From a virus (lineage: Duplodnaviria > Heunggongvirae > Uroviricota > Caudoviricetes): a stretch of DNA of 39,214 bases. Position numbers and translations under genes: made by a program. Below the pieces are notes generated by a model. That model was not told where the DNA came from. It was given only the letters and a program-made list of their open reading frames with translations, and ran no database searches. The stretch lies in IMG/VR virus record IMGVR_UViG_2541047122_000029; one strand, written 5' to 3'. The number at the start of each line of letters is the position of its first letter. The stretch's first letter is position 1. Shown piece after piece: positions 10,235 through 39,214 of this stretch.

Positions 10235-10735
10235 ATGCCAAAACTCCCCGCACCACTGCGTAAAAAGCTGATTGCCCTTGTTCTGGCCGGTGCCGGGACG
10301 TTCACGATTGCCACGCATTACACCGGTTACTGGGAAGGGAAAGAAAACTCCACGTATATCGATCCCACCGGTACACCCACCATCTGTTACGGCCATACCG
10401 GCCCGGATGTGAAACCGGGTATGACCCTGACGGATGAAGAATGCCTGGAACTACTGGAAAAGGACATGAAATGGGCCTTTGCGGCCATTGATCGGCGTGT
10501 TCAGGTGCCGCTTACCCGTGGTCAGACGGTGGCGCTGGCTTCGTGGATCTTCTGGGCTGGTGAAACGAACTTCCGCAACTCCACGCTTCTGCGCCTGATC
10601 AATGCCGGGCAGATGCCCGCGTCCTGTAAGCAGTATATCCGCTGGATTTATTCAAAGGGGGTGAAACTTCCCGGCCTTGAGGCCCGCCGTTCGGCGGATG
10701 AATGGTTATGTCGCTACGACTTGCCGAAAGTCTGA
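10235..10735 (+). CDS. SAR endolysin (phage lysozyme, T4-lysozyme/GH24-like)
   Basis: 166 aa; N-terminal weakly hydrophobic signal-anchor-release segment LIALVLAGAGTFTIATHY; YWEGKENSTYIDPTGTPTICYGHTG contains the Glu-Asp-Thr catalytic pattern. Confidence 0.85.
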   Translation: MPKLPAPLRKKLIALVLAGAGTFTIATHYTGYWEGKENSTYIDPTGTPTICYGHTGPDVKPGMTLTDEECLELLEKDMKWAFAAIDRRVQVPLTRGQTVALASWIFWAGETNFRNSTLLRLINAGQMPASCKQYIRWIYSKGVKLPGLEARRSADEWLCRYDLPKV

Positions 10736-10808
10736 ACCGCTTCTGGCGACCGCTCATGATAGCGCTGCTGTGTGCGGTACTGCTGTTACGGGGTGTCCTG
10801 TGGCTGCG

Positions 10809-11198
10809 GTGAATAACGCCTTACCGGCCCTGATTGCCGGGGCGTGCATGGCGGCGCTGGGGATTATCGCTGTACTGGTTGCTGCGATATGGGGAATGCA
10901 CCAGAAGACGCAGCGCCTTGAGGACAATAATCAGGTACTTGTACGTGAGCGGGATGAGGCGCGTCAGGTGCTGGCAAATCAGCAGCACACCCTGCAACTC
11001 ATTTCACAAATCAGTGAGGCGGCCACGAATGAAAAGCAACAGAACATTCAGCACACCGAGGAGCAACAGAGCGTTGTCCGCCGGTCGCTGGCAGCAGTGC
11101 CTGCTGCCTCTGCCCCTGTTCCTGATGATGTGGCTGATCGGGTGCGCCGGGCCGTCTGTGAAATACGTGCCTGTGAAGCCGGTGCCGATCCCCGCTGA
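10809..11198 (+). CDS. i-spanin (Rz-like inner-membrane spanin)
   Basis: Within track ORF 10677-11198; N-terminal TM helix ALPALIAGACMAALGIIAVLVAAIW then Gln/Glu-rich coiled-coil. Start uncertain (GTG 10809 or ATG 10848). Confidence 0.65.
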   Translation: MNNALPALIAGACMAALGIIAVLVAAIWGMHQKTQRLEDNNQVLVRERDEARQVLANQQHTLQLISQISEAATNEKQQNIQHTEEQQSVVRRSLAAVPAASAPVPDDVADRVRRAVCEIRACEAGADPR

Positions 11199-11400
11199 AT
11201 GGCTGGCTGACTGCCTGGTCCCTCCTGCGCCGGAGCCGTTCACGTTTGGGGCATCGGTCACTTACAACCTGCAACTGCTGGCGGTGATCAAGAACTGCAA
11301 CGTGGACAAGGCCAGTATTCGTCGTCTGGAGGCGCGGCGACAACATGAATTTACTGATATGGCCGGAACGCCTGCTGTTCCGGCAGGAAAGACGAAGTAA
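11029..11400 (+). CDS. o-spanin (Rz1-like outer-membrane lipoprotein), overlapping the i-spanin in another frame
   Basis: Internal ATG of track ORF 10834-11400; signal peptide with lipobox LIGC, Pro-rich mature region VKYVPVKPVPIP; starts inside the i-spanin gene and extends past it. Confidence 0.7.
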   Translation: MKSNRTFSTPRSNRALSAGRWQQCLLPLPLFLMMWLIGCAGPSVKYVPVKPVPIPAEWLADCLVPPAPEPFTFGASVTYNLQLLAVIKNCNVDKASIRRLEARRQHEFTDMAGTPAVPAGKTK

Positions 11401-33092: not shown

Positions 33093-33458
33093 TTAAATAC
33101 TTGCAGCGGATACCCAATGCCCATTAATACAATATTGTATCTGTCTGTAATAAACACGGTCATCACCACCACGCATTTCCCAGTCTCCGTTAGTCTTAAA
33201 ACCGGTAATCACATTTCCTGATGACAGGGAGTAATTATATTCCAGTCCGCCGCTTAATGCCTGCGCTCCCAGTCTTACCCCTGTAACATAACGCTGATTG
33301 GCCGTTGATTCCGGCATTCCTGACGTAATGTTTATATCCTGCGTGCCGTCAAAGGCGACACCATTGATTCTGCGGGCATTTGCCAGCCTGCTTGCTGCAA
33401 CAGCCGTACCGTTTGATGGCAGGGCATTCGCGGCCCTGTTTACCGTATCCCGTAAACC
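33093..33458 (-). CDS. Alternative tail-fibre C-terminal segment (S'v-like; no own start, expressed only after inversion)
   Basis: Minus-strand frame open from the crossover site to the stop at 33093-33095; encodes RDTVNRAANALPSNGTAVAAS...GTQDINITSGM..., paralogous to fibre residues LRETVNKAADALPSGGTAVAAN...; a TGA lies in frame just upstream of the site. Confidence 0.7.
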   Translation of the reverse strand, partial: GLRDTVNRAANALPSNGTAVAASRLANARRINGVAFDGTQDINITSGMPESTANQRYVTGVRLGAQALSGGLEYNYSLSSGNVITGFKTNGDWEMRGGDDRVYYRQIQYCINGHWVSAASI

Positions 33459-33472
33459 GAGGTTTCAGGGAT
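33447..33472. other. gix-like crossover site (right) of Gin-type invertible segment
   Basis: ATCCCGTAAACC-GA-GGTTTCAGGGAT, near-perfect palindrome with 2-bp core at 33459-33460, inverted relative to the left site; about 55 bp upstream of the invertase start. Confidence 0.7.
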
Positions 33473-33526
33473 GCCGTATATCTGCTTTAAAAGGCCTTTC
33501 CACCTCTTTTTAAGGAAGGTAAATAC

Positions 33527-34087
33527 ATGCTGATTGGCTATATACGCGTATCAACAAATGACCAGAACACAGGTTTACAAAGAAATGCGCTGGAATGTGC
33601 AGGATGTGAGCAGATTTTTGAAGACAAAATGAGTGGTAAAACGACACAGCGGCCGGGACTGAAGCGGGCACTGAAGAAACTAAAACCCGGTGACACGCTG
33701 ATGGTCTGGAAACTGGACAGGCTGGGGCGCAGTATGCGCCACCTTGTTGCGCTGACAGATGAATTACAGCAACAGGGGATAAATTTTCGTAGTTTTACTG
33801 ACAACATTGATACGTCAACCCCCATGGGGCGCTTCTTTTTTCACATAATGGGTGCGCTGGCAGAAATGGAGCGTGAATTAATTGTCGAACGGACACGGGC
33901 TGGTCTTGCAGCTGCCCGTGAAAGGGGACGAACCGGCGGCAGACCCCGCCGTCTCACGCAGGAACAATACGAGCAGGTCGGGCGTTTACTGGCCGGGGGT
34001 GTCAGTCGAAGACAGGTGGCACTTATTTTTGATATCGGTCTTTCAACCCTTTATCGTTATTATCCTGCGAGCGTTTCGGAAAAATAA
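33527..34087 (+). CDS. gin: Gin/Hin/Cin-family serine DNA invertase
   Basis: 186 aa; resolvase-type catalytic N-terminus MLIGYIRVSTNDQNTGLQ (catalytic Ser), C-terminal HTH; RBS AAGGAAGG upstream. Confidence 0.9.
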   Translation: MLIGYIRVSTNDQNTGLQRNALECAGCEQIFEDKMSGKTTQRPGLKRALKKLKPGDTLMVWKLDRLGRSMRHLVALTDELQQQGINFRSFTDNIDTSTPMGRFFFHIMGALAEMERELIVERTRAGLAAARERGRTGGRPRRLTQEQYEQVGRLLAGGVSRRQVALIFDIGLSTLYRYYPASVSEK

Positions 34088-34186
34088 GACGCTCTCTTTG
34101 TTGGGCCTTTACTGAATTAACGCAAAATGGCGTTTATCGGTCTGTGGATATGATAATTCAGTTTATTCAGGAACAGGCTGATTATT

Positions 34187-36226
34187 ATGACGTCCAAATG
34201 GGTTCAACTATCATCAATGCCCGGAAACTTTACTGTTAAAGTTTCCGGTGGTACAGCGGCATTTCTTGAGGCTCCCTTTCCTCCGGCCGAAACAAAAGGA
34301 GGAATGACATTTGCTGACTGTCTCATCAGTTTTAATACACGGGATTGCCTGTGGGTAAGGCCAGTATCCGGTGATCCGAGTGTGGAAATTACCGGAGCGG
34401 GTATTGGTGCGGTCATTCCGTTAAGTGCTGATGTTGCCGGTACTGCTGAACCGTCAGACTGGGATAATGCTGAAACACATACCCGTCCGTCAGGAAATGA
34501 AACTGCTTCCAGCTCCCCTTCCTGGTATTACGTGGTGGTTCTTGCTGGTCAGTCAAACGGTATGGCTTACGGTGAAGGTCTGCCACTGCCGGAGACATAT
34601 GACCGCCCCGAACCGCGTATTATGCAGTTAGCCCGTCGCAGTACAGTCACGCCGGGAGGTAAAGCCTGTCAGTATAACGACATCATTCTGGCCGACCACT
34701 GTCTGCATGATGTGCAGGATATGAGTGGAAAAAATCACCCGAAAGCGGATGTGGCTAAAGGGCAATATGGCACCGTGGGTCAGGGGCTTCACATTGCCAA
34801 AAAACTGCTGCCGTTTATTCCGGCAGATGCGGGGATTCTGCTGGTTCCCTGCTGCCGTGGTGGTTCTGCATTCACGGCGGGTGCTGACGGCACGTACAGT
34901 GACAGCACGGGTGCTTCAGAGGACTCAGCCCGCTGGGGTGTGGATAAGCCGCTGTATAAGGACTTAATCAGCCGGACAAAAGCGGCACTGGCGAAGAACC
35001 CGAAAAACCGCCTGCTTGCTGTGGTGTGGATGCAGGGCGAGTTTGATATTGATGCGAAGCCGACGGAGCATTCTGCGCTGTTTCTGGCGATGGTGGAAAA
35101 ATTCCGCGCAGACCTGGCTGAACAGGCGGAACAGTGTACCGGTGGCAGTGCTGCTGGCGTTCCGTGGATTTGTGGTGATACCACGTATTTCTGGAAACAG
35201 AAAAACGAACAGGCATACCAGGCAATCTATGACGGCTACAAAAATAAAACAGATAAAAACATTCATTTCGTCCCATTAATGACAGATGAAAATGGCGCGA
35301 ATGTACCCACCAACAATCCGGCAGAAGACCCGGATATTGAATCCATTGGTTATTACGGCTCAACGTGGCGTAACAGTGCCGCCACCTGGACATCTACGGA
35401 CCGGGCCAGCCATTTCAGTTCATGGGCACGTCGTGGGATTATTTCCGACCGTCTGGCCACGGCAGTTCTGACTCATGCGGGGCGAACCACAGTAAAAGCC
35501 GATGTTCCATCTTCTGAAACTGAAGCACCAGTGCCGTCACCTTCAGAAACTGAAGCAGTAACCACAACACTGCTGTCTTACCGTGTCAGTGAGTCAGAAG
35601 GAAATCTGAAAGCCCAGGGCTGGGAGCCGGCTGGCGGTAAAGCTGAAATTATCAGTGATGCAGGAGGCACAGGTGGTAAGGCAATGAAACTGACCAAGGA
35701 AACAGGTAAATCATCCTGGTATCTGGATCATGATGCCGGTACTGGTGCTGAACTGCTGAAAAATGGTGGTTTAATCAGTTGTCGTTTTAAAGTACCGGGC
35801 GACCTGGTGGCAAACCAGTATGTCATGGCGCTTTACTGGCCGGTTTCCTCTCTGCCGCAGGGTGTCACCCTGACAGGGGATGCAGGGAATAATCTGCTGG
35901 CATCGTTCTACATCCAGACAGACGCAAAAGACCTGAATGTGATGTACCACAATGCAAAAGTGGCAACAAATAACCAGAAACTGGGAACCTTTGGTGCATT
36001 TGATAATGAATGGCATACGCTGGCCTTCCGTTTTGCAGGAAATAACAGCCTTCAGGTTATTCCGGTTATTGATGGTCAGGATGGTGCCGCGTTTACCCTG
36101 ACGCAGTCACCAGTAGGAACTTTCCCGGTGGACAAACTCCGCGTAACGGATATCACAAAAAATGCAACTTACCCGGTGCTGATTGACAGCATTGTGGTGG
36201 AAGTGAAAAAAGCGGTAACAGAATAA
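34187..36226 (+). CDS. Multidomain SGNH/SASA-type carbohydrate esterase with Pro/Ser/Thr/Glu-rich linker and C-terminal lectin-like domain (cargo gene)
   Basis: 679 aa; AGQSNGMAYGEG (catalytic-Ser GQSN block), WMQGEFD and DRASHF motifs match sialate O-acetylesterase-type domains as recalled; linker PSSETEAPVPSPSETEA; no N-terminal signal peptide; sits between gin and com/mom, where Mu has no gene. Confidence 0.75.
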   Translation: MTSKWVQLSSMPGNFTVKVSGGTAAFLEAPFPPAETKGGMTFADCLISFNTRDCLWVRPVSGDPSVEITGAGIGAVIPLSADVAGTAEPSDWDNAETHTRPSGNETASSSPSWYYVVVLAGQSNGMAYGEGLPLPETYDRPEPRIMQLARRSTVTPGGKACQYNDIILADHCLHDVQDMSGKNHPKADVAKGQYGTVGQGLHIAKKLLPFIPADAGILLVPCCRGGSAFTAGADGTYSDSTGASEDSARWGVDKPLYKDLISRTKAALAKNPKNRLLAVVWMQGEFDIDAKPTEHSALFLAMVEKFRADLAEQAEQCTGGSAAGVPWICGDTTYFWKQKNEQAYQAIYDGYKNKTDKNIHFVPLMTDENGANVPTNNPAEDPDIESIGYYGSTWRNSAATWTSTDRASHFSSWARRGIISDRLATAVLTHAGRTTVKADVPSSETEAPVPSPSETEAVTTTLLSYRVSESEGNLKAQGWEPAGGKAEIISDAGGTGGKAMKLTKETGKSSWYLDHDAGTGAELLKNGGLISCRFKVPGDLVANQYVMALYWPVSSLPQGVTLTGDAGNNLLASFYIQTDAKDLNVMYHNAKVATNNQKLGTFGAFDNEWHTLAFRFAGNNSLQVIPVIDGQDGAAFTLTQSPVGTFPVDKLRVTDITKNATYPVLIDSIVVEVKKAVTE

Positions 36227-36231
36227 AAAAA

Positions 36232-36260
36232 TCCCGCCGGTCATGATATGGCTGGCGGGA
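36232..36260. other. Stem-loop immediately downstream of the esterase gene
   Basis: TCCCGCC (36232-36238) / GGCGGGA (36254-36260); preceded by A7 (36224-36230), so it reads as hairpin plus U-run on the minus strand; no U-tract after it on the + strand. Confidence 0.4.
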
Positions 36261-36372
36261 GCTACCTAACCCATAAAGGAAAATAAAAATACTCCCGAAG
36301 GAGTGGTTATCAGTCGCTTCGATGTTTTTACCCGATAACGAATTATGTAGTCAATATCAAAGGTAAGGTTAT

Positions 36373-36555
36373 ATGACATTCGTTCATACAATGCTGCTTT
36401 ATTTCTGCGCAGTGGTCAGTGCGTTATATCTGGTGAGCGGCGGTTATAAGGTCATCAGAAATTATATTCGCCGTAAAATTGATGATGCGGCAGCTGAAAA
36501 ACTCAGTAAAACAGCACAGGCACCGTCATCCCCAAACGACCCGACCCCGCTCTGA
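36373..36555 (+). CDS. Small single-pass membrane protein (cargo, unknown function)
   Basis: 60 aa; TM helix MLLYFCAVVSALYLVSGGY then charged tail; RBS AAGGTAAGG upstream. Confidence 0.55.
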   Translation: MTFVHTMLLYFCAVVSALYLVSGGYKVIRNYIRRKIDDAAAEKLSKTAQAPSSPNDPTPL

Positions 36556-36590
36556 TAACGGGGCAATATACCTGCAAAAGGAGAATATTC

Positions 36591-36836
36591 ATGCCAGAGA
36601 TTAAAGGCACGGTTACTGAAGAGCTTGTCAAACAGGCACTTTATTCTGAAGAAGTGAACCGCGTGCTGAAGGCGCAGGTTCGCAAGGATTTTGAGGCACA
36701 AATCGACGCATATGTTGATGAAGTGCTGGCCCGAATGGTTGGCCATTCTCCGGCTGAAAACAGCACGGAGAATGAGCCTCAAGCCGTAGAGCAACCAGAG
36801 CCGGTTCAGCCCGGAACTGACGGTACTATGATGTAA
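36591..36836 (+). CDS. Small acidic helical protein (cargo, unknown function)
   Basis: 81 aa; RBS AAAGGAG 8 nt upstream of ATG; followed by a clean terminator. Confidence 0.65.
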   Translation: MPEIKGTVTEELVKQALYSEEVNRVLKAQVRKDFEAQIDAYVDEVLARMVGHSPAENSTENEPQAVEQPEPVQPGTDGTMM

Positions 36837-36845
36837 CAATACCGA

Positions 36846-36876
36846 CCGGCAGGTTTCCCTGCCGGGTGAATTTGTT
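36846..36876 (+). terminator. Rho-independent terminator after the small two-gene cassette
   Basis: CCGGCAGG (36846-36853) / CCTGCCGG (36858-36865), loop TTTC, then GTGAATTTGTT. Confidence 0.7.
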
Positions 36877-37045
36877 AATGCACGTTTTGTGTACTTTCCC
36901 TCCGGGGAGAACAGGCAGGACATATCAGCATCCTGAAACAGGACGCATTTTGGGGTTTGTATGTCTTGCCATTTTGAGATCGAGAACGGCGATAGATGAG
37001 CTGTAAGGGAGTCTTACAGGCAGGGCAAACAGGCTCTTTATCCAT
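36875..37045 (-). CDS. Possible small zinc-ribbon protein, divergent from com/mom (low confidence)
   Basis: Minus-strand 56-aa ORF MDKEPVCPACKTPLQ...CPACSPRRE with two CPAC pairs; AAGGAG 9 nt upstream of ATG at 37045; track ORF 36875-37069 starts 8 codons earlier. Confidence 0.3.
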   Translation of the reverse strand: MDKEPVCPACKTPLQLIYRRSRSQNGKTYKPQNASCFRMLICPACSPRRESTQNVH

Positions 37046-37139
37046 GATAAAGATCTCCTTTTTATGCATCTCTGCTTTACAGGAGACCGGGGAATATCAT
37101 AGGATACGACACGAGCTCGAAGTAAAGCATTGATGCGAA

Positions 37140-37410
37140 TTTGTTCCAGGTCCAGATAGCTGTAACTATCTGGACCTCCCTTTATGTAGTATCCTGTTGA
37201 TTTGAAACATACTACATATACGCGCGATCCTACCTTCACTGTATAAAAAGTCAATAAAATGATCATTTTATGATCGTTTTCACCACCTAAGTCTTCGTTT
37301 TCTTTAAGTAAATAATCACCGCCCTGAATCATTGTTGATGACTTTTCAATCTATTTGTTGTATCAATTAAACAAATCGAATCGATCGTTTTTGTCGATCG
37401 ATTGCATGAG
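37140..37410. promoter_or_regulatory. com/mom upstream control region (palindromes plus GATC cluster, likely Dam-methylation-sensitive promoter)
   Basis: AT-rich. 12-bp inverted repeat AGGTCCAGATAG (37148-37159) / CTATCTGGACCT (37166-37177); 9-bp inverted repeat ATGTAGTAT (37184-37192) / ATACTACAT (37209-37217); GATC at 37226, 37261, 37272, 37383, 37396. Confidence 0.6.
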
Positions 37411-37446
37411 AAAGGCATCAACAACAAAGCAGGAGGTTATGCGGCC

Positions 37447-37647
37447 ATGTATCGAAACATACGGTGCCGACACTGCAATAAGCTACTGGCACGGGCCAGT
37501 TTCAGTTATCTGGAAGTAAAATGTCCGCGCTGTAAAACCCTCAATCAAATCACATCTCCGAGCGCCACAGAGCACCCCACATACACAAGGAAATCCTGTC
37601 GTGGGGAACAGAAAGCAAGTCACATCCCGTATCATCAGCACGCCTGA
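37447..37647 (+). CDS. com: Com-like zinc-finger translational activator of mom
   Basis: ATG 37447 (RBS AGGAGG) inside track ORF 37402-37647; [13 protein letters not shown]...[12 protein letters not shown] matches Mu Com (IRCKNCNKLLFKA...IRCPRCKRH) as I recall it; overlaps the next gene. Confidence 0.75.
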
Positions 37648-38338
37648 ACTTATTCGCTATAACGACAATATCGTTGGTTATGGCTCCCGTGAGTTGCGGG
37701 TTGAGACAATAAGTTGCTGGCTGGCCAGACTGGTCATCGTCAATAAACATTACAGCCACCGTTTCGTAAATAACTCCTACCTTCATCTGGGCATATTTTC
37801 AGAACGGGAGCTGGTTGGCGTAATGCAATGGGGCTATGCCCTTAATCCAAACAGTGGTGCACGCGTCGTAACGGGCACGCGGAACCGTGAATATATGGAG
37901 CTTAACCGGTTATGGCTGCATGACTGTATGCCGAGAAACTCCGAATCAAGGGCAATCAGTTACGCGCTCAAGCTAATCAGGCAGCTTTATCCGCAGGTAC
38001 AGTGGGTTCAGTCGTTTGCAGATGAGCGTTGTGGCTGTCTTGGTGTCGTGTATCAGGCAAGCAATTTTGATTATGTAGGCAGCCACGAATCAACATTCTA
38101 TGAACTTGATGGCGAGTGGTATCACGAGATTTGCAGGAATGCCATTAAACGAGGCGGACAGCGAGGTGAACATCTGAGGGCTAATATCGACAGAGCCAGT
38201 GTTCATAAATTCCGTCAGTTTCGTTACATCCGGTTTCTGAACAAGAGGGCCAGAAAACGCCTCAACACAAAGCTATTCAAAGTCCAGCCTTACCCAAAAC
38301 CACAAACAGTTAAAACTGGTTTAAAAGAGAGTGAGTGA
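37601..38338 (+). CDS. mom: Mom-like DNA modification protein (anti-restriction)
   Basis: 245-aa ORF overlapping the end of com; ...[16 protein letters not shown]...[23 protein letters not shown] resembles Mu Mom as I recall it. Start uncertain (GTG 37601 in track). Confidence 0.75.
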
Positions 38339-38920: not shown

Positions 38921-39214
38921 TGAACCGCCCCGGGTTTCCTGGAGAGTGTTTTATCTGTGAACTCAGGCTGCCAGATCATCGTTTCCGATGGAAGCATAAT
39001 AAGCTTTTTCTGCTTCTGCCGGAGGAGTATGGCCCAGCCTTCCCAGCAATCGTCGATTGTTATACCAGTCCACCCACGTTAGTGTGGCCAGTTCCACTTC
39101 TGCACGGTTTTTCCAGCTCTTACGGTGTATTACCTCCGCTTTGTAAAGACCATTGATGCTCTCAGCCATCGCGTTGTCATACGAGTCGCCTGTACTCCCT
39201 GTTGATGCCAGTAA
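38921..39214 (-). mobile_element. IS3-family insertion sequence, partial (continues past window end)
   Basis: Terminal sequence TGAACCGCCCCGGGTTTCCTGGAGAGTG from 38921; minus-strand transposase 3' end lies 42 bp inside it. Confidence 0.8.
38963..39214 (-). CDS. IS3-family transposase OrfB, C-terminal fragment (5' part outside window)
   Basis: Minus-strand frame open to the window edge: ...GDSYDNAMAESINGLYKAEVIHRKSW..., matching the DDE-integrase C-terminal block of IS3-family OrfB; stop at 38963-38965. Confidence 0.8.
   Translation of the reverse strand, partial: LLASTGSTGDSYDNAMAESINGLYKAEVIHRKSWKNRAEVELATLTWVDWYNNRRLLGRLGHTPPAEAEKAYYASIGNDDLAA

What the first reader, a model, noticed from the sequence alone, without database searches (positions are those of the whole stretch)
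36271..36876. Two-gene small cassette (membrane protein plus acidic protein) with its own terminator
A 60-aa single-pass membrane protein and an 81-aa acidic helical protein, both with good RBSs, are followed by a clean terminator and are absent from the canonical Mu map. Small membrane-protein and partner pairs in prophage cargo positions are often exclusion, abortive-infection or toxin-antitoxin-like modules. The function here is unknown.
Basis: inference. Interest (0 to 1): 0.55.

Follow-up and report, generated by a model that had tools for sequence, protein, structure and literature searches.

The report
NanS-p cargo module: two small genes, antisense sRNA
The two small genes are real, already catalogued genes of unknown function that travel with a phage sialic-acid esterase gene and with an overlooked antisense small RNA, and nothing here shows them to be a toxin-antitoxin or defence cassette.

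Summary
Both ORFs exist as described: 36373-36555 (60 aa, Pfam DUF1378) and 36591-36836 (81 aa, Pfam DUF826). Both have good ribosome-binding sites and are under purifying selection. The exact proteins occur on at least 1000 public contigs each. The window matches the Mu-like prophage Sp18 of E. coli O157 Sakai (genes ECs4994/ECs4995).

They are not an independent cassette. In 84 of 84 usable loci they follow a NanS-p sialate O-acetylesterase gene in the same order. This holds in two unrelated phage backbones: lambdoid, between Q/stx and the pinholin S, and Mu-like, between gin and com-mom. S21-holin phages without NanS-p lack the pair, so the pair is linked to nanS-p rather than to the holin.

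The nanS-p/DUF1378 spacer also carries a conserved minus-strand promoter and terminator. This spacer is 100% identical to the Sakai ECs4993-ECs4994 spacer. Published Hfq crosslinking found an abundant minus-strand RNA there (EcOnc37, uncharacterised).

No match was found to known defence systems, solved structures or RNA families. The function remains untested. My best guess is a membrane-anchored basic protein plus an acidic cytosolic partner, co-expressed with NanS-p and modulated by the antisense sRNA. The finding is already known as sequence and of moderate-to-low interest.

The parts
34187..36226 (+). NanS-p-type sialate O-acetylesterase gene (679 aa). It is the upstream member of the module and lies outside the finding's coordinates.
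   Evidence: Pfam SASA PF03629 (5.5e-12) plus DUF6645 PF20350 (4e-70) and phrog_143. It precedes the pair in every locus that has enough flanking sequence.
36225..36260 (-). Minus-strand intrinsic terminator. The hairpin spans 36232-36260. An A7 run on the plus strand at 36225-36231 reads as U7 on the minus strand. On the plus strand the same hairpin lacks a U tract.
   Evidence: The plus-strand fold is -23.2 kcal/mol, z = -5.6. An A7-8 run followed by a GC hairpin is conserved in both backbones and in distant loci. 39 of 41 unique spacers have a U run of 6 or more on the minus strand, against 1 of 41 on the plus strand.
36226..36318 (-). Predicted ~93-nt Hfq-binding sRNA, the counterpart of EcOnc37 in Sakai prophage Sp18. 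It has a 5' UUCG-tetraloop hairpin, a U/A-rich linker and a Rho-independent terminator. It is antisense to any nanS-p-to-DUF1378 read-through transcript.
   Evidence: The spacer is 100% identical to Sakai ECs4993-ECs4994. Tree et al. 2014 (PMC4104026) Table S1B ranks that spacer 57th, with reads on one strand only. Table S2 lists EcOnc37 in Sp18 on the minus strand with a terminator, in 5 of 5 datasets. The 5' end is predicted, not mapped.
36325..36354 (-). Candidate minus-strand promoter of the sRNA. TTGACT (-35) lies at 36354->36349, followed by an 18-nt spacer and TAAAAA (-10-like) at 36330->36325.
   Evidence: The pattern (-35 matching at least 5 of 6, then 16-19 nt, then TAnAAn) occurs in 38 of 41 unique spacers on the minus strand. 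It occurs in 0 of 41 on the plus strand and is expected 0.25 times in shuffles. The -10 lacks the usual final T, so the generic scan did not list it.
36360..36368 (+). Shine-Dalgarno region of the DUF1378 gene (AAGGTAAGG).
   Evidence: Read from the sequence. Partly conserved in the alignment.
36373..36555 (+). DUF1378 gene (60 aa). It encodes a predicted single-pass inner-membrane protein with the N terminus outside. The helix continues into a basic cytosolic stretch, and the tail is disordered.
   Evidence: PF07125 at 131.5 bits over 1-59/59 and phrog_494. AlphaFold gives a helix over residues 3-49. dN/dS is 0.18 overall and 0.24 within Mu-like loci.
36578..36583 (+). Shine-Dalgarno sequence of the DUF826 gene (AAGGAG, 7 nt before the ATG).
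   Evidence: Read from the sequence.
36591..36836 (+). DUF826 gene (81 aa). It encodes an acidic soluble protein with a short helix at residues 10-17 and a long helix at 20-50. An acidic disordered tail ends in a conserved hydrophobic tip (TMM).
   Evidence: PF05696 at 57.1 bits and phrog_311. AlphaFold pLDDT is 84-95 over residues 11-50. dN/dS is 0.19 in the domain and 0.44 in the tail. The C-terminal tip is visible in the alignment.
36846..36876 (+). Terminator-like hairpin closing the module. It has an 8-bp GC stem, a TTTC loop and the tail GTGAATTTGTT.
   Evidence: A hairpin with a T-rich tail follows DUF826 in nearly all unique variants. It is canonical in lambdoid phages, where it lies between DUF826 and the holin S.

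Best explanation
SHOWN. The two ORFs are genuine, conserved genes of Pfam families DUF1378 (PF07125) and DUF826 (PF05696). They form the distal half of one mobile cargo module: nanS-p (sialate O-acetylesterase), then a convergent antisense sRNA gene, then DUF1378, DUF826 and a terminator. In lambdoid (largely Shiga-toxin) prophages this module sits in the Q-dependent late operon, between Q/stx and the pinholin gene S. Here it has been placed between gin and com-mom of a Mu-like prophage that matches Sakai Sp18.

INFERRED, about 0.25-0.3 probability for this mechanistic part:
- DUF1378 is a bitopic inner-membrane protein with its N terminus outside. Its helix continues into a basic cytosolic stretch.
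- DUF826 is an acidic cytosolic helical protein that this stretch recruits to the membrane.
- Both are made from read-through of the nanS-p transcript. No promoter of their own is seen, the two genes are 19-40 nt apart, and one terminator follows both.
- Their level is set by the stable hairpin after nanS-p and by the Hfq-bound antisense sRNA (the EcOnc37 equivalent). That sRNA is fully complementary to the read-through mRNA just upstream of the DUF1378 ribosome-binding site.
- The pair serves the NanS-p cargo or the lysogen, not the holin. It is not a stand-alone toxin-antitoxin or abortive-infection cassette.
For: Identity: Pfam and PHROG hits. The exact proteins occur on at least 1000 contigs each under those names. 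Matching DNA is found in 212 of 5426 complete E. coli genomes, annotated the same way.

They are real genes: dN/dS is 0.18 and 0.27, and stays at 0.24 and 0.14 within Mu-like loci. Nearly all copies are intact.

They belong to the nanS-p module:
- All 84 loci with both genes intact have NanS-p, DUF1378 and DUF826 in that order, in the Mu-like and lambdoid backbones alike.
- Distant homologues (~30% identity) keep the same order, next to a different holin family, PF16080.
- S21-holin phages without NanS-p have neither small gene.

Mu insertion: phage Mu has 95 bp between gin and com. Homology to Mu resumes in mom.

sRNA: the minus-strand promoter and terminator patterns are conserved. The spacer is identical to Sakai ECs4993-ECs4994. 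Hfq-CRAC reads fall on the minus strand only, and EcOnc37 is listed for Sp18 (PMC4104026 supplement).

Protein architecture.

Late, Q-linked expression of nanS-p in lambdoid phages: PMC10462455.
Against: - NanS-p occurs without the pair, in PPyecE_EH1910 and Sakai Sp9. The esterase therefore does not need them.
- A tail-less DUF826 clade occurs alone, without DUF1378 or NanS-p.
- Alleles of the two small genes are shuffled relative to each other, so any interaction is not allele-specific.
- No experiment or complex model here shows that the two proteins bind.
- Co-transcription with nanS-p is inferred from the absence of a promoter-like site, not shown.
- Six Mu-like loci have a 57-nt spacer with no sRNA gene yet keep the pair.
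- The sRNA 5' end is predicted. EcOnc37 coordinates are from an older Sakai version that is 128 bp shorter overall, going by the originally published genome length, which I recall rather than checked here. The assignment therefore rests mainly on the named intergenic row of Table S1B.
- The sRNA could act purely in trans, like the other prophage sRNAs of that study.
Confidence: 0.55

Rival explanations
1. Lysis-accessory pair. A small membrane protein plus a small cytosolic partner tunes holin triggering or lysis timing, as an antiholin-like function, in the late operon.
For: In lambdoid loci the pair lies immediately upstream of a class II holin gene. This holds for two different holin families, PF04971 and PF16080. 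The architecture (a membrane protein plus an ~80-aa helical cytosolic protein) recalls T4 RI/RIII; that comparison is from memory and is not a test.
Against: - S21-holin phages that lack NanS-p lack the pair.
- NanS-p + S21 phages can also lack it.
- In Mu-like prophages the pair has no adjacent holin, yet it stays intact and under purifying selection.
- A canonical terminator separates DUF826 from S.
- No sequence similarity to any lysis family was found.
Confidence: 0.15
2. Type I toxin-antitoxin-like unit. DUF1378 is a membrane-damaging peptide whose synthesis is held down by the cis-encoded antisense sRNA, and DUF826 is an accessory or neutralising partner.
For: - DUF1378 is a small hydrophobic single-pass protein.
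- An Hfq-bound sRNA gene lies directly upstream on the opposite strand. It is fully complementary to a read-through 5' leader.
- The sRNA elements are absent where the pair is absent (L087).
Against: - Six loci keep an intact pair with no sRNA gene.
- The protein has a conserved 35-residue cytosolic part and a conserved protein partner, which is unusual for type I toxins.
- There is no PADLOC or Pfam toxin hit.
- The sRNA shows no outstanding complementarity to the two translation-initiation regions.
- Toxicity is untested.
Confidence: 0.1
3. Superinfection exclusion or another anti-phage function expressed from the prophage.
For: The genes occupy a cargo (moron) position with a terminator of their own. 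Small inner-membrane proteins of prophages often block DNA entry; this is general knowledge and was not tested here. In the Mu-like context the module lies downstream of gin with no terminator in between, so expression in the lysogen is possible.
Against: - No match to 5027 defence-system models.
- In lambdoid phages the module is in the Q-dependent late operon.
- The strict linkage to nanS-p has no obvious rationale under this model.
Confidence: 0.1
4. Chance ORFs, or decaying hitch-hikers without function.
For: Both are short, and no function has been published.
Against: - Strong family matches.
- dN/dS well below 1 in both backbones.
- 83 of 85 and 81 of 86 copies are intact.
- Start codons, ribosome-binding sites and spacing are conserved.
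- The overlapping 153-aa antisense ORF has no family and is not conserved in length.
Confidence: 0.03

Closest known systems
DUF1378 (PF07125 / phrog_494) and DUF826 (PF05696 / phrog_311) genes between nanS-p and holin S of Stx phages such as 933W and VT2-Sakai
   Same: Same two families, in the same order, with the same short spacing. The same NanS-p gene lies upstream and a terminator lies downstream. PMC10462455 mentions them as ORFs of unknown function.
   Different: Here the backbone is Mu-like and no holin follows. The proteins are only 52% and ~42% identical to the 933W-type copies. The NanS-p N-terminal ~115 residues are also unrelated, since DNA homology to VT2-Sakai starts at 34541.
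ECs4993-ECs4995 and sRNA EcOnc37 of prophage Sp18, E. coli O157:H7 Sakai
   Same: Same gene order. The nanS-p/DUF1378 spacer is 100% identical. The published Hfq binding therefore applies to this sequence.
   Different: Essentially none for the region studied. The minus-strand ORF to the right is 135 aa here and is annotated as 154 aa in Sakai.
Convergent prophage sRNAs in the lambdoid 'moron' region (AsxR/EcOnc02, AgvB; Tree et al. 2014)
   Same: A short Hfq-bound RNA, transcribed against the late operon from a cargo region, ending in a Rho-independent terminator. Its ends are conserved and its body is variable.
   Different: It lies after nanS-p rather than after stx. The predicted length is ~93 nt rather than 51-60 nt. 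There was no Rfam match. No target or function is known, and anti-sRNA activity was not tested.
Type I toxin-antitoxin loci (tisB/istR-1, zorO/orzO, hok/sok)
   Same: A small hydrophobic protein gene with an sRNA gene on the opposite strand next to its 5' leader.
   Different: The protein is longer, has a conserved cytosolic part and has a protein partner. It follows a 2-kb enzyme gene instead of having its own promoter. The sRNA is dispensable in some loci. No homology was found.

Membership tests
Pfam PF07125 (DUF1378) | Score above the curated gathering threshold, over the full-length model | tested here: met
   131.5 bits against a cut-off of 25. Residues 1-59 match model positions 1-59 of 59.
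Pfam PF05696 (DUF826) | Score above the curated gathering threshold | tested here: met
   57.1 bits against a cut-off of 25. Residues 1-54 match model positions 1-56 of 75. The phrog_311 match is full length.
nanS-p cargo module of E. coli prophages | A SASA + DUF6645 esterase gene directly upstream, the same strand, and the order NanS-p, DUF1378, DUF826 | tested here: met
   (84 of 84 loci).
nanS-p cargo module of E. coli prophages | A terminator after DUF826 | tested here: met
   The hairpin is present and is conserved in position. The U tract is weak in this copy.
Hfq-dependent sRNA (EcOnc37 equivalent) | In vivo Hfq binding of an RNA from this strand and place | tested here: met
   Published CRAC data exist for a spacer of identical sequence. 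The strand was calibrated against AsxR and known sRNAs in the same table.
Hfq-dependent sRNA (EcOnc37 equivalent) | A Rho-independent terminator with a poly-U tail, and its own promoter | tested here: met
   The terminator is supported. The promoter pattern occurs in 38 of 41 variants, but its -10 is non-consensus.
Hfq-dependent sRNA (EcOnc37 equivalent) | Mapped 5'/3' ends and a discrete band on a Northern blot | not testable with these tools
   The Northern column for EcOnc37 in Table S2 is empty. No main-text mention was found anywhere.
Type I toxin-antitoxin system | The toxin gene always co-occurs with its antisense RNA | tested here: not met
   The L002-type spacer (57 nt, 6 loci) has no sRNA promoter or terminator, yet both genes are intact.
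Type I toxin-antitoxin system | Toxicity of the small protein when over-expressed | not testable with these tools
   This needs an experiment.
Known anti-phage defence systems (PADLOC-DB 2.0) | A match of either protein to a system component model | tested here: not met
   No hits at E up to 1 for these proteins, for their 933W counterparts, or for the neighbouring genes.
Holin / antiholin lysis cassette | Genetic linkage to a holin-endolysin cassette | tested here: not met
   No holin follows here. The prophage's own lysis genes lie about 26 kb away, at 10235-11400. S21-holin phages without NanS-p lack the pair.
Canonical phage Mu gene set | A counterpart in the Mu gin-com interval | tested here: not met
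   Mu has 95 bp between gin and com.

The most novel reading that the evidence does not exclude
DUF1378 is a membrane-active protein whose production is gated by the cis-antisense, Hfq-bound sRNA in the nanS-p/DUF1378 spacer. DUF826 is its cytosolic partner. Together they would form an RNA-controlled membrane switch, either type I toxin-antitoxin-like or a non-holin release device for the signal-less NanS-p (and possibly Stx). Such a switch would be present in most Shiga-toxin phages and copied into Mu-like prophages.
Probability: 0.12. Interest if true: 0.65.

Novelty: already known. Interest (0 to 1): 0.36.

Why it matters
The same two genes sit next to stx and the lysis genes in several hundred sequenced Shiga-toxin phages, and no function has been assigned to them. 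This work adds three concrete points:
- They are tied to the NanS-p esterase rather than to the holin.
- They survive transplantation into a Mu-like phage.
- They are preceded by a conserved, experimentally Hfq-bound antisense sRNA.

Together these give a testable framework. If the pair or the sRNA affects release of NanS-p or toxin, lysis timing or lysogen fitness, that would bear on EHEC biology. As it stands, this is an annotated pair of unknown function in a well-sequenced prophage.

Tried and rejected
- **Defence, toxin or named families.** PADLOC and NCBIfam gave nothing.
- **Solved structures.** Sequence profiles of both families gave no PDB match. A Foldseek search with the DUF826 model gave none. 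Both models are simple helices, so fold comparison cannot inform function.
- **Rfam scan of 35900-37700.** Only chance-level hits.
- **HnrS (EcOnc10-12) as the spacer sRNA.** Rejected: in Sp9 it lies after Rz, and Sp9 has no pair.
- **Trans pairing of the predicted sRNA with the two translation-initiation regions.** Duplex energies of -13.9 and -20.5 kcal/mol fall inside the background of 46 other genes in the window.
- **Genome-contig scan with the DUF1378 alignment.** No confirmed locus, so taxonomic breadth rests. The family is small: only 60 representative clusters among 1.84 billion proteins.
- **Pseudo-complex prediction from the natural frameshift fusion P0176.** MAFFT misaligned the two families and the tool reports no contacts, so I did not run it.
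- **The 153-aa antisense ORF 36462-36923.** No family match, and not conserved in length.
- **Literature on locus tags (L0106, Z1467, ECs1208).** Nothing relevant.

Full report
**1. Observation**

The window carries ORF 36373..36555 (+, 60 aa) and ORF 36591..36836 (+, 81 aa). Each is preceded by a Shine-Dalgarno sequence. AAGGTAAGG lies at 36360-36368, 4 nt from the first ATG. AAGGAG lies at 36578-36583, 7 nt from the second.

The first protein has one strongly hydrophobic segment (residues 3-21, Kyte-Doolittle mean 2.02). It is followed by five K/R residues within 12 positions, so by the positive-inside rule the N terminus is outside and the C terminus is in the cytoplasm. AlphaFold models it as a single helix, residues 3-49, with a disordered end.

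The second protein is acidic (pI 4.4, net charge -9). It has a short helix (residues 10-17) and a long helix (20-50), modelled with pLDDT 84-95, then a disordered acidic tail.

An 8-bp GC hairpin (36846-36865) follows the second gene. Its U tract is interrupted, so the consensus scan did not list it. Phage Mu has only 95 bp between gin and com, whereas here 3.4 kb separate them.

**2. Identity**

The proteins match Pfam DUF1378 (PF07125, E = 1e-38, full length) and DUF826 (PF05696, E = 2e-15). They also match PHROGs 494 and 311, both of unknown function. The exact sequences occur on at least 1000 public contigs each under those names. 212 of 5426 complete E. coli genomes carry matching DNA, at 95% identity or more in nearly all of them, with the same annotation.

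The window is a Mu-like prophage. It encodes the transposase region, GemA, Mor, Lys, a LysC-type spanin, gp27, gin, com and mom. It corresponds to Sp18 of O157:H7 Sakai, where the two genes are ECs4994 and ECs4995.

Both genes are under purifying selection. Median pairwise dN/dS is 0.18 and 0.27 overall. Within Mu-like loci it is 0.24 and 0.14. For DUF826 it is 0.19 in the helical domain and 0.44 in the tail. 83 of 85 and 81 of 86 copies are intact.

**3. Context: not a two-gene cassette**

The gene upstream (34187-36226) is a NanS-p-type sialate O-acetylesterase, with SASA and DUF6645 domains. This is a known prophage enzyme that lets EHEC use O-acetylated sialic acids (PMC8065619).

In 80 IMG/VR loci retrieved with DUF826, together with the annotated records fetched for comparison and further loci found through distant homologues, the order NanS-p, DUF1378, DUF826 held in every one of the 84 loci with both genes intact (the window included). 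The two small genes lie 19-40 nt apart.

Two unrelated backbones carry this trio:
- Mu-like prophages, between gin and com/mom.
- Lambdoid prophages, between Q/stx and the S21-type pinholin and endolysin.

Distant DUF826 homologues (~30% identity) keep the same order next to a different holin family, PF16080. The family is small, with only 60 representative clusters in 1.84 billion proteins.

The linkage is to nanS-p and not to the holin:
- S21-holin phages without NanS-p have neither small gene.
- The pair stays intact and constrained in Mu-like prophages, where no holin follows.
- The dependence runs one way only. NanS-p occurs without the pair in PPyecE_EH1910 and Sakai Sp9.
- A tail-less DUF826 clade occurs alone.

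**4. Transcription signals**

No sigma-70-like plus-strand promoter lies between nanS-p and DUF1378. A hairpin with a T-rich tail follows DUF826 in nearly every variant. In lambdoid phages it is a canonical terminator lying between DUF826 and S. The trio therefore looks like one unit closed by a terminator, which Q-modified polymerase would read through. In lambdoid phages nanS-p rises 1 to 2.4 logs on mitomycin C induction (PMC10462455).

**5. An overlooked element inside the finding's coordinates**

Directly after the nanS-p stop codon there is a run of 7-8 A followed by a GC-rich hairpin with no U tract after it. On the minus strand this reads as an intrinsic terminator. It is conserved in both backbones and in distant loci, although the stem sequences differ.

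Reading the spacer on the minus strand shows the following:
- 38 of 41 unique variants have a -35 hexamer matching TTGACA at 5 of 6 positions or better, then 16-19 nt, then TAnAAn. The counts are 0 of 41 on the plus strand and 0.25 expected in shuffles.
- 39 of 41 end in a run of at least 6 U.
- The variants are related and the pattern was defined after inspection, so these counts show conservation and are not a probability.

In the window the elements are TTGACT (36354->36349), TAAAAA (36330->36325), the hairpin 36260->36232 and U7 (36231->36225). The predicted ~93-nt RNA has a UUCG-tetraloop hairpin, a U/A-rich linker and the terminator.

The spacer is 100% identical to the Sakai ECs4993-ECs4994 spacer. 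Tree et al. 2014 (PMC4104026) provide the experimental support:
- Table S1B lists 'ECs4993...ECs4994' as the 57th most Hfq-crosslinked intergenic region. Read counts are 15921|0, 5032|0, 11303|1, 91585|187 and 2303|0.
- The first column is the minus strand. This follows from AsxR (given as minus-strand in Table S2 of the same paper) and from ryhB and omrA/B, compared with chiX, fnrS and the tufB tRNAs; the orientations of these E. coli K-12 genes are from memory.
- Table S2 lists EcOnc37 in Sp18, on the minus strand, with a Rho-independent terminator, in 5 of 5 datasets.
- Its coordinates (5077340-5077410) refer to an older genome version that, by the original length as I recall it, is 128 bp shorter than the current record. 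With that shift they fall on window ~36190-36290.
- EcOnc37 appears in no main text in the library and has no Rfam family.

Where the pair is absent (L087), these elements are absent too. However, six Mu-like loci with a 57-nt spacer keep the pair without the sRNA gene.

**6. Mechanism**

Shown: the family membership, the module structure, its transplantation into a Mu-like phage, the purifying selection, and the Hfq-bound antisense RNA.

Inferred, at about 0.25-0.3:
- The basic cytosolic helix of the membrane-anchored DUF1378 recruits the acidic DUF826.
- Both are translated from nanS-p read-through mRNA.
- Their level is set by the hairpin after nanS-p and by the antisense sRNA, which is fully complementary to the leader of DUF1378.

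Three observations weigh against a strict functional tie. NanS-p exists without the pair. Alleles of the two small genes are shuffled relative to each other. No evidence of binding exists.

Rival explanations:
- Lysis accessory (0.15). Adjacency to holins favours it. The distribution data, the intervening terminator and the Mu-like context count against it.
- Type I toxin-antitoxin-like (0.10). The sRNA and the small hydrophobic protein favour it. The loci without the sRNA, the presence of a protein partner and the lack of any homology count against it.
- Superinfection exclusion or defence (0.10). There is no PADLOC hit.
- Non-functional ORFs (0.03). This is contradicted by the selection data.

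**7. Comparison and novelty**

The closest known things are the same two DUF genes between nanS-p and S in Stx phages, mentioned once in the searched literature, and only in passing, and ECs4994/ECs4995 with EcOnc37 in Sakai Sp18. The sequence is already known and annotated. Its function is not known.

This analysis adds the one-way linkage to nanS-p, the independence from the holin, and the recognition that a conserved antisense sRNA gene belongs to the module. Interest is moderate to low unless the RNA-gated membrane-protein reading proves true.

Noticed in passing
window 36925-37332 (- strand), also 36875-37069: A convergent 135-aa ORF (phrog_26524, E = 6e-95, no Pfam or PADLOC hit) fills the space between the module and com. 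RefSeq relatives annotate it as frameshifted, while Sakai annotates it as 154 aa (ECs_4996). Other Mu-like prophages carry an unrelated 97-aa ORF at the same place, so this slot is variable.
   Followed up: partly
L073 (IMG/VR contig UViG_2617270951_000022), 96-5136: A gin-like invertase and a Mu-type NanS-p are followed by lambdoid-type DUF1378/DUF826 and then S and R. This is either a recombinant between a Mu-like and a lambdoid prophage with a crossover near the end of nanS-p, or an assembly chimera. Homology to the window runs over 33443-36239 only.
   Followed up: partly
window 34187-34540: The N-terminal ~115 residues of this NanS-p have no Pfam match. They are unrelated to the DUF1737 domain at the N terminus of lambdoid NanS-p, and DNA homology to VT2-Sakai begins at 34541. 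The left junction of the transplanted module may therefore lie inside the gene.
   Followed up: partly
window 36824-36836 (end of DUF826): The variable acidic tail of DUF826 ends in a conserved hydrophobic tip (TMM, MMM, TML, LMQQ) across distant homologues. That may be a short binding motif. The tail-less clade lacks it.
   Followed up: partly
L092 6001-6180 and L089 207-389: A ~60-aa tail-less DUF826 clade occurs without DUF1378 or NanS-p. In one prophage it lies between a methyltransferase gene and the terminase genes. In another it lies next to a KilA-N/ORF11CD3 gene.
   Followed up: partly
proteins P0176 (163 aa) and P0192 (122 aa): Public gene calls fuse DUF1378 to DUF826 through the out-of-frame spacer. 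These look like frameshift or read-through artefacts. The 139-aa 'orf43' of VT2-Sakai is similarly an over-extended DUF826 call that hides the DUF1378 gene.
   Followed up: partly
window 36232-36260: The hairpin after nanS-p is more stable on the plus strand (-23.2 kcal/mol) than on the minus strand (-14.7 kcal/mol) because of G-U pairs. Besides terminating the antisense sRNA, it may therefore act as a 3' stabiliser of nanS-p mRNA.
   Followed up: no
window 38963-39169 (- strand): An ORF beyond mom at the right edge of the window reads like the C-terminal part of an IS-type transposase. This suggests an insertion sequence next to the prophage end.
   Followed up: no
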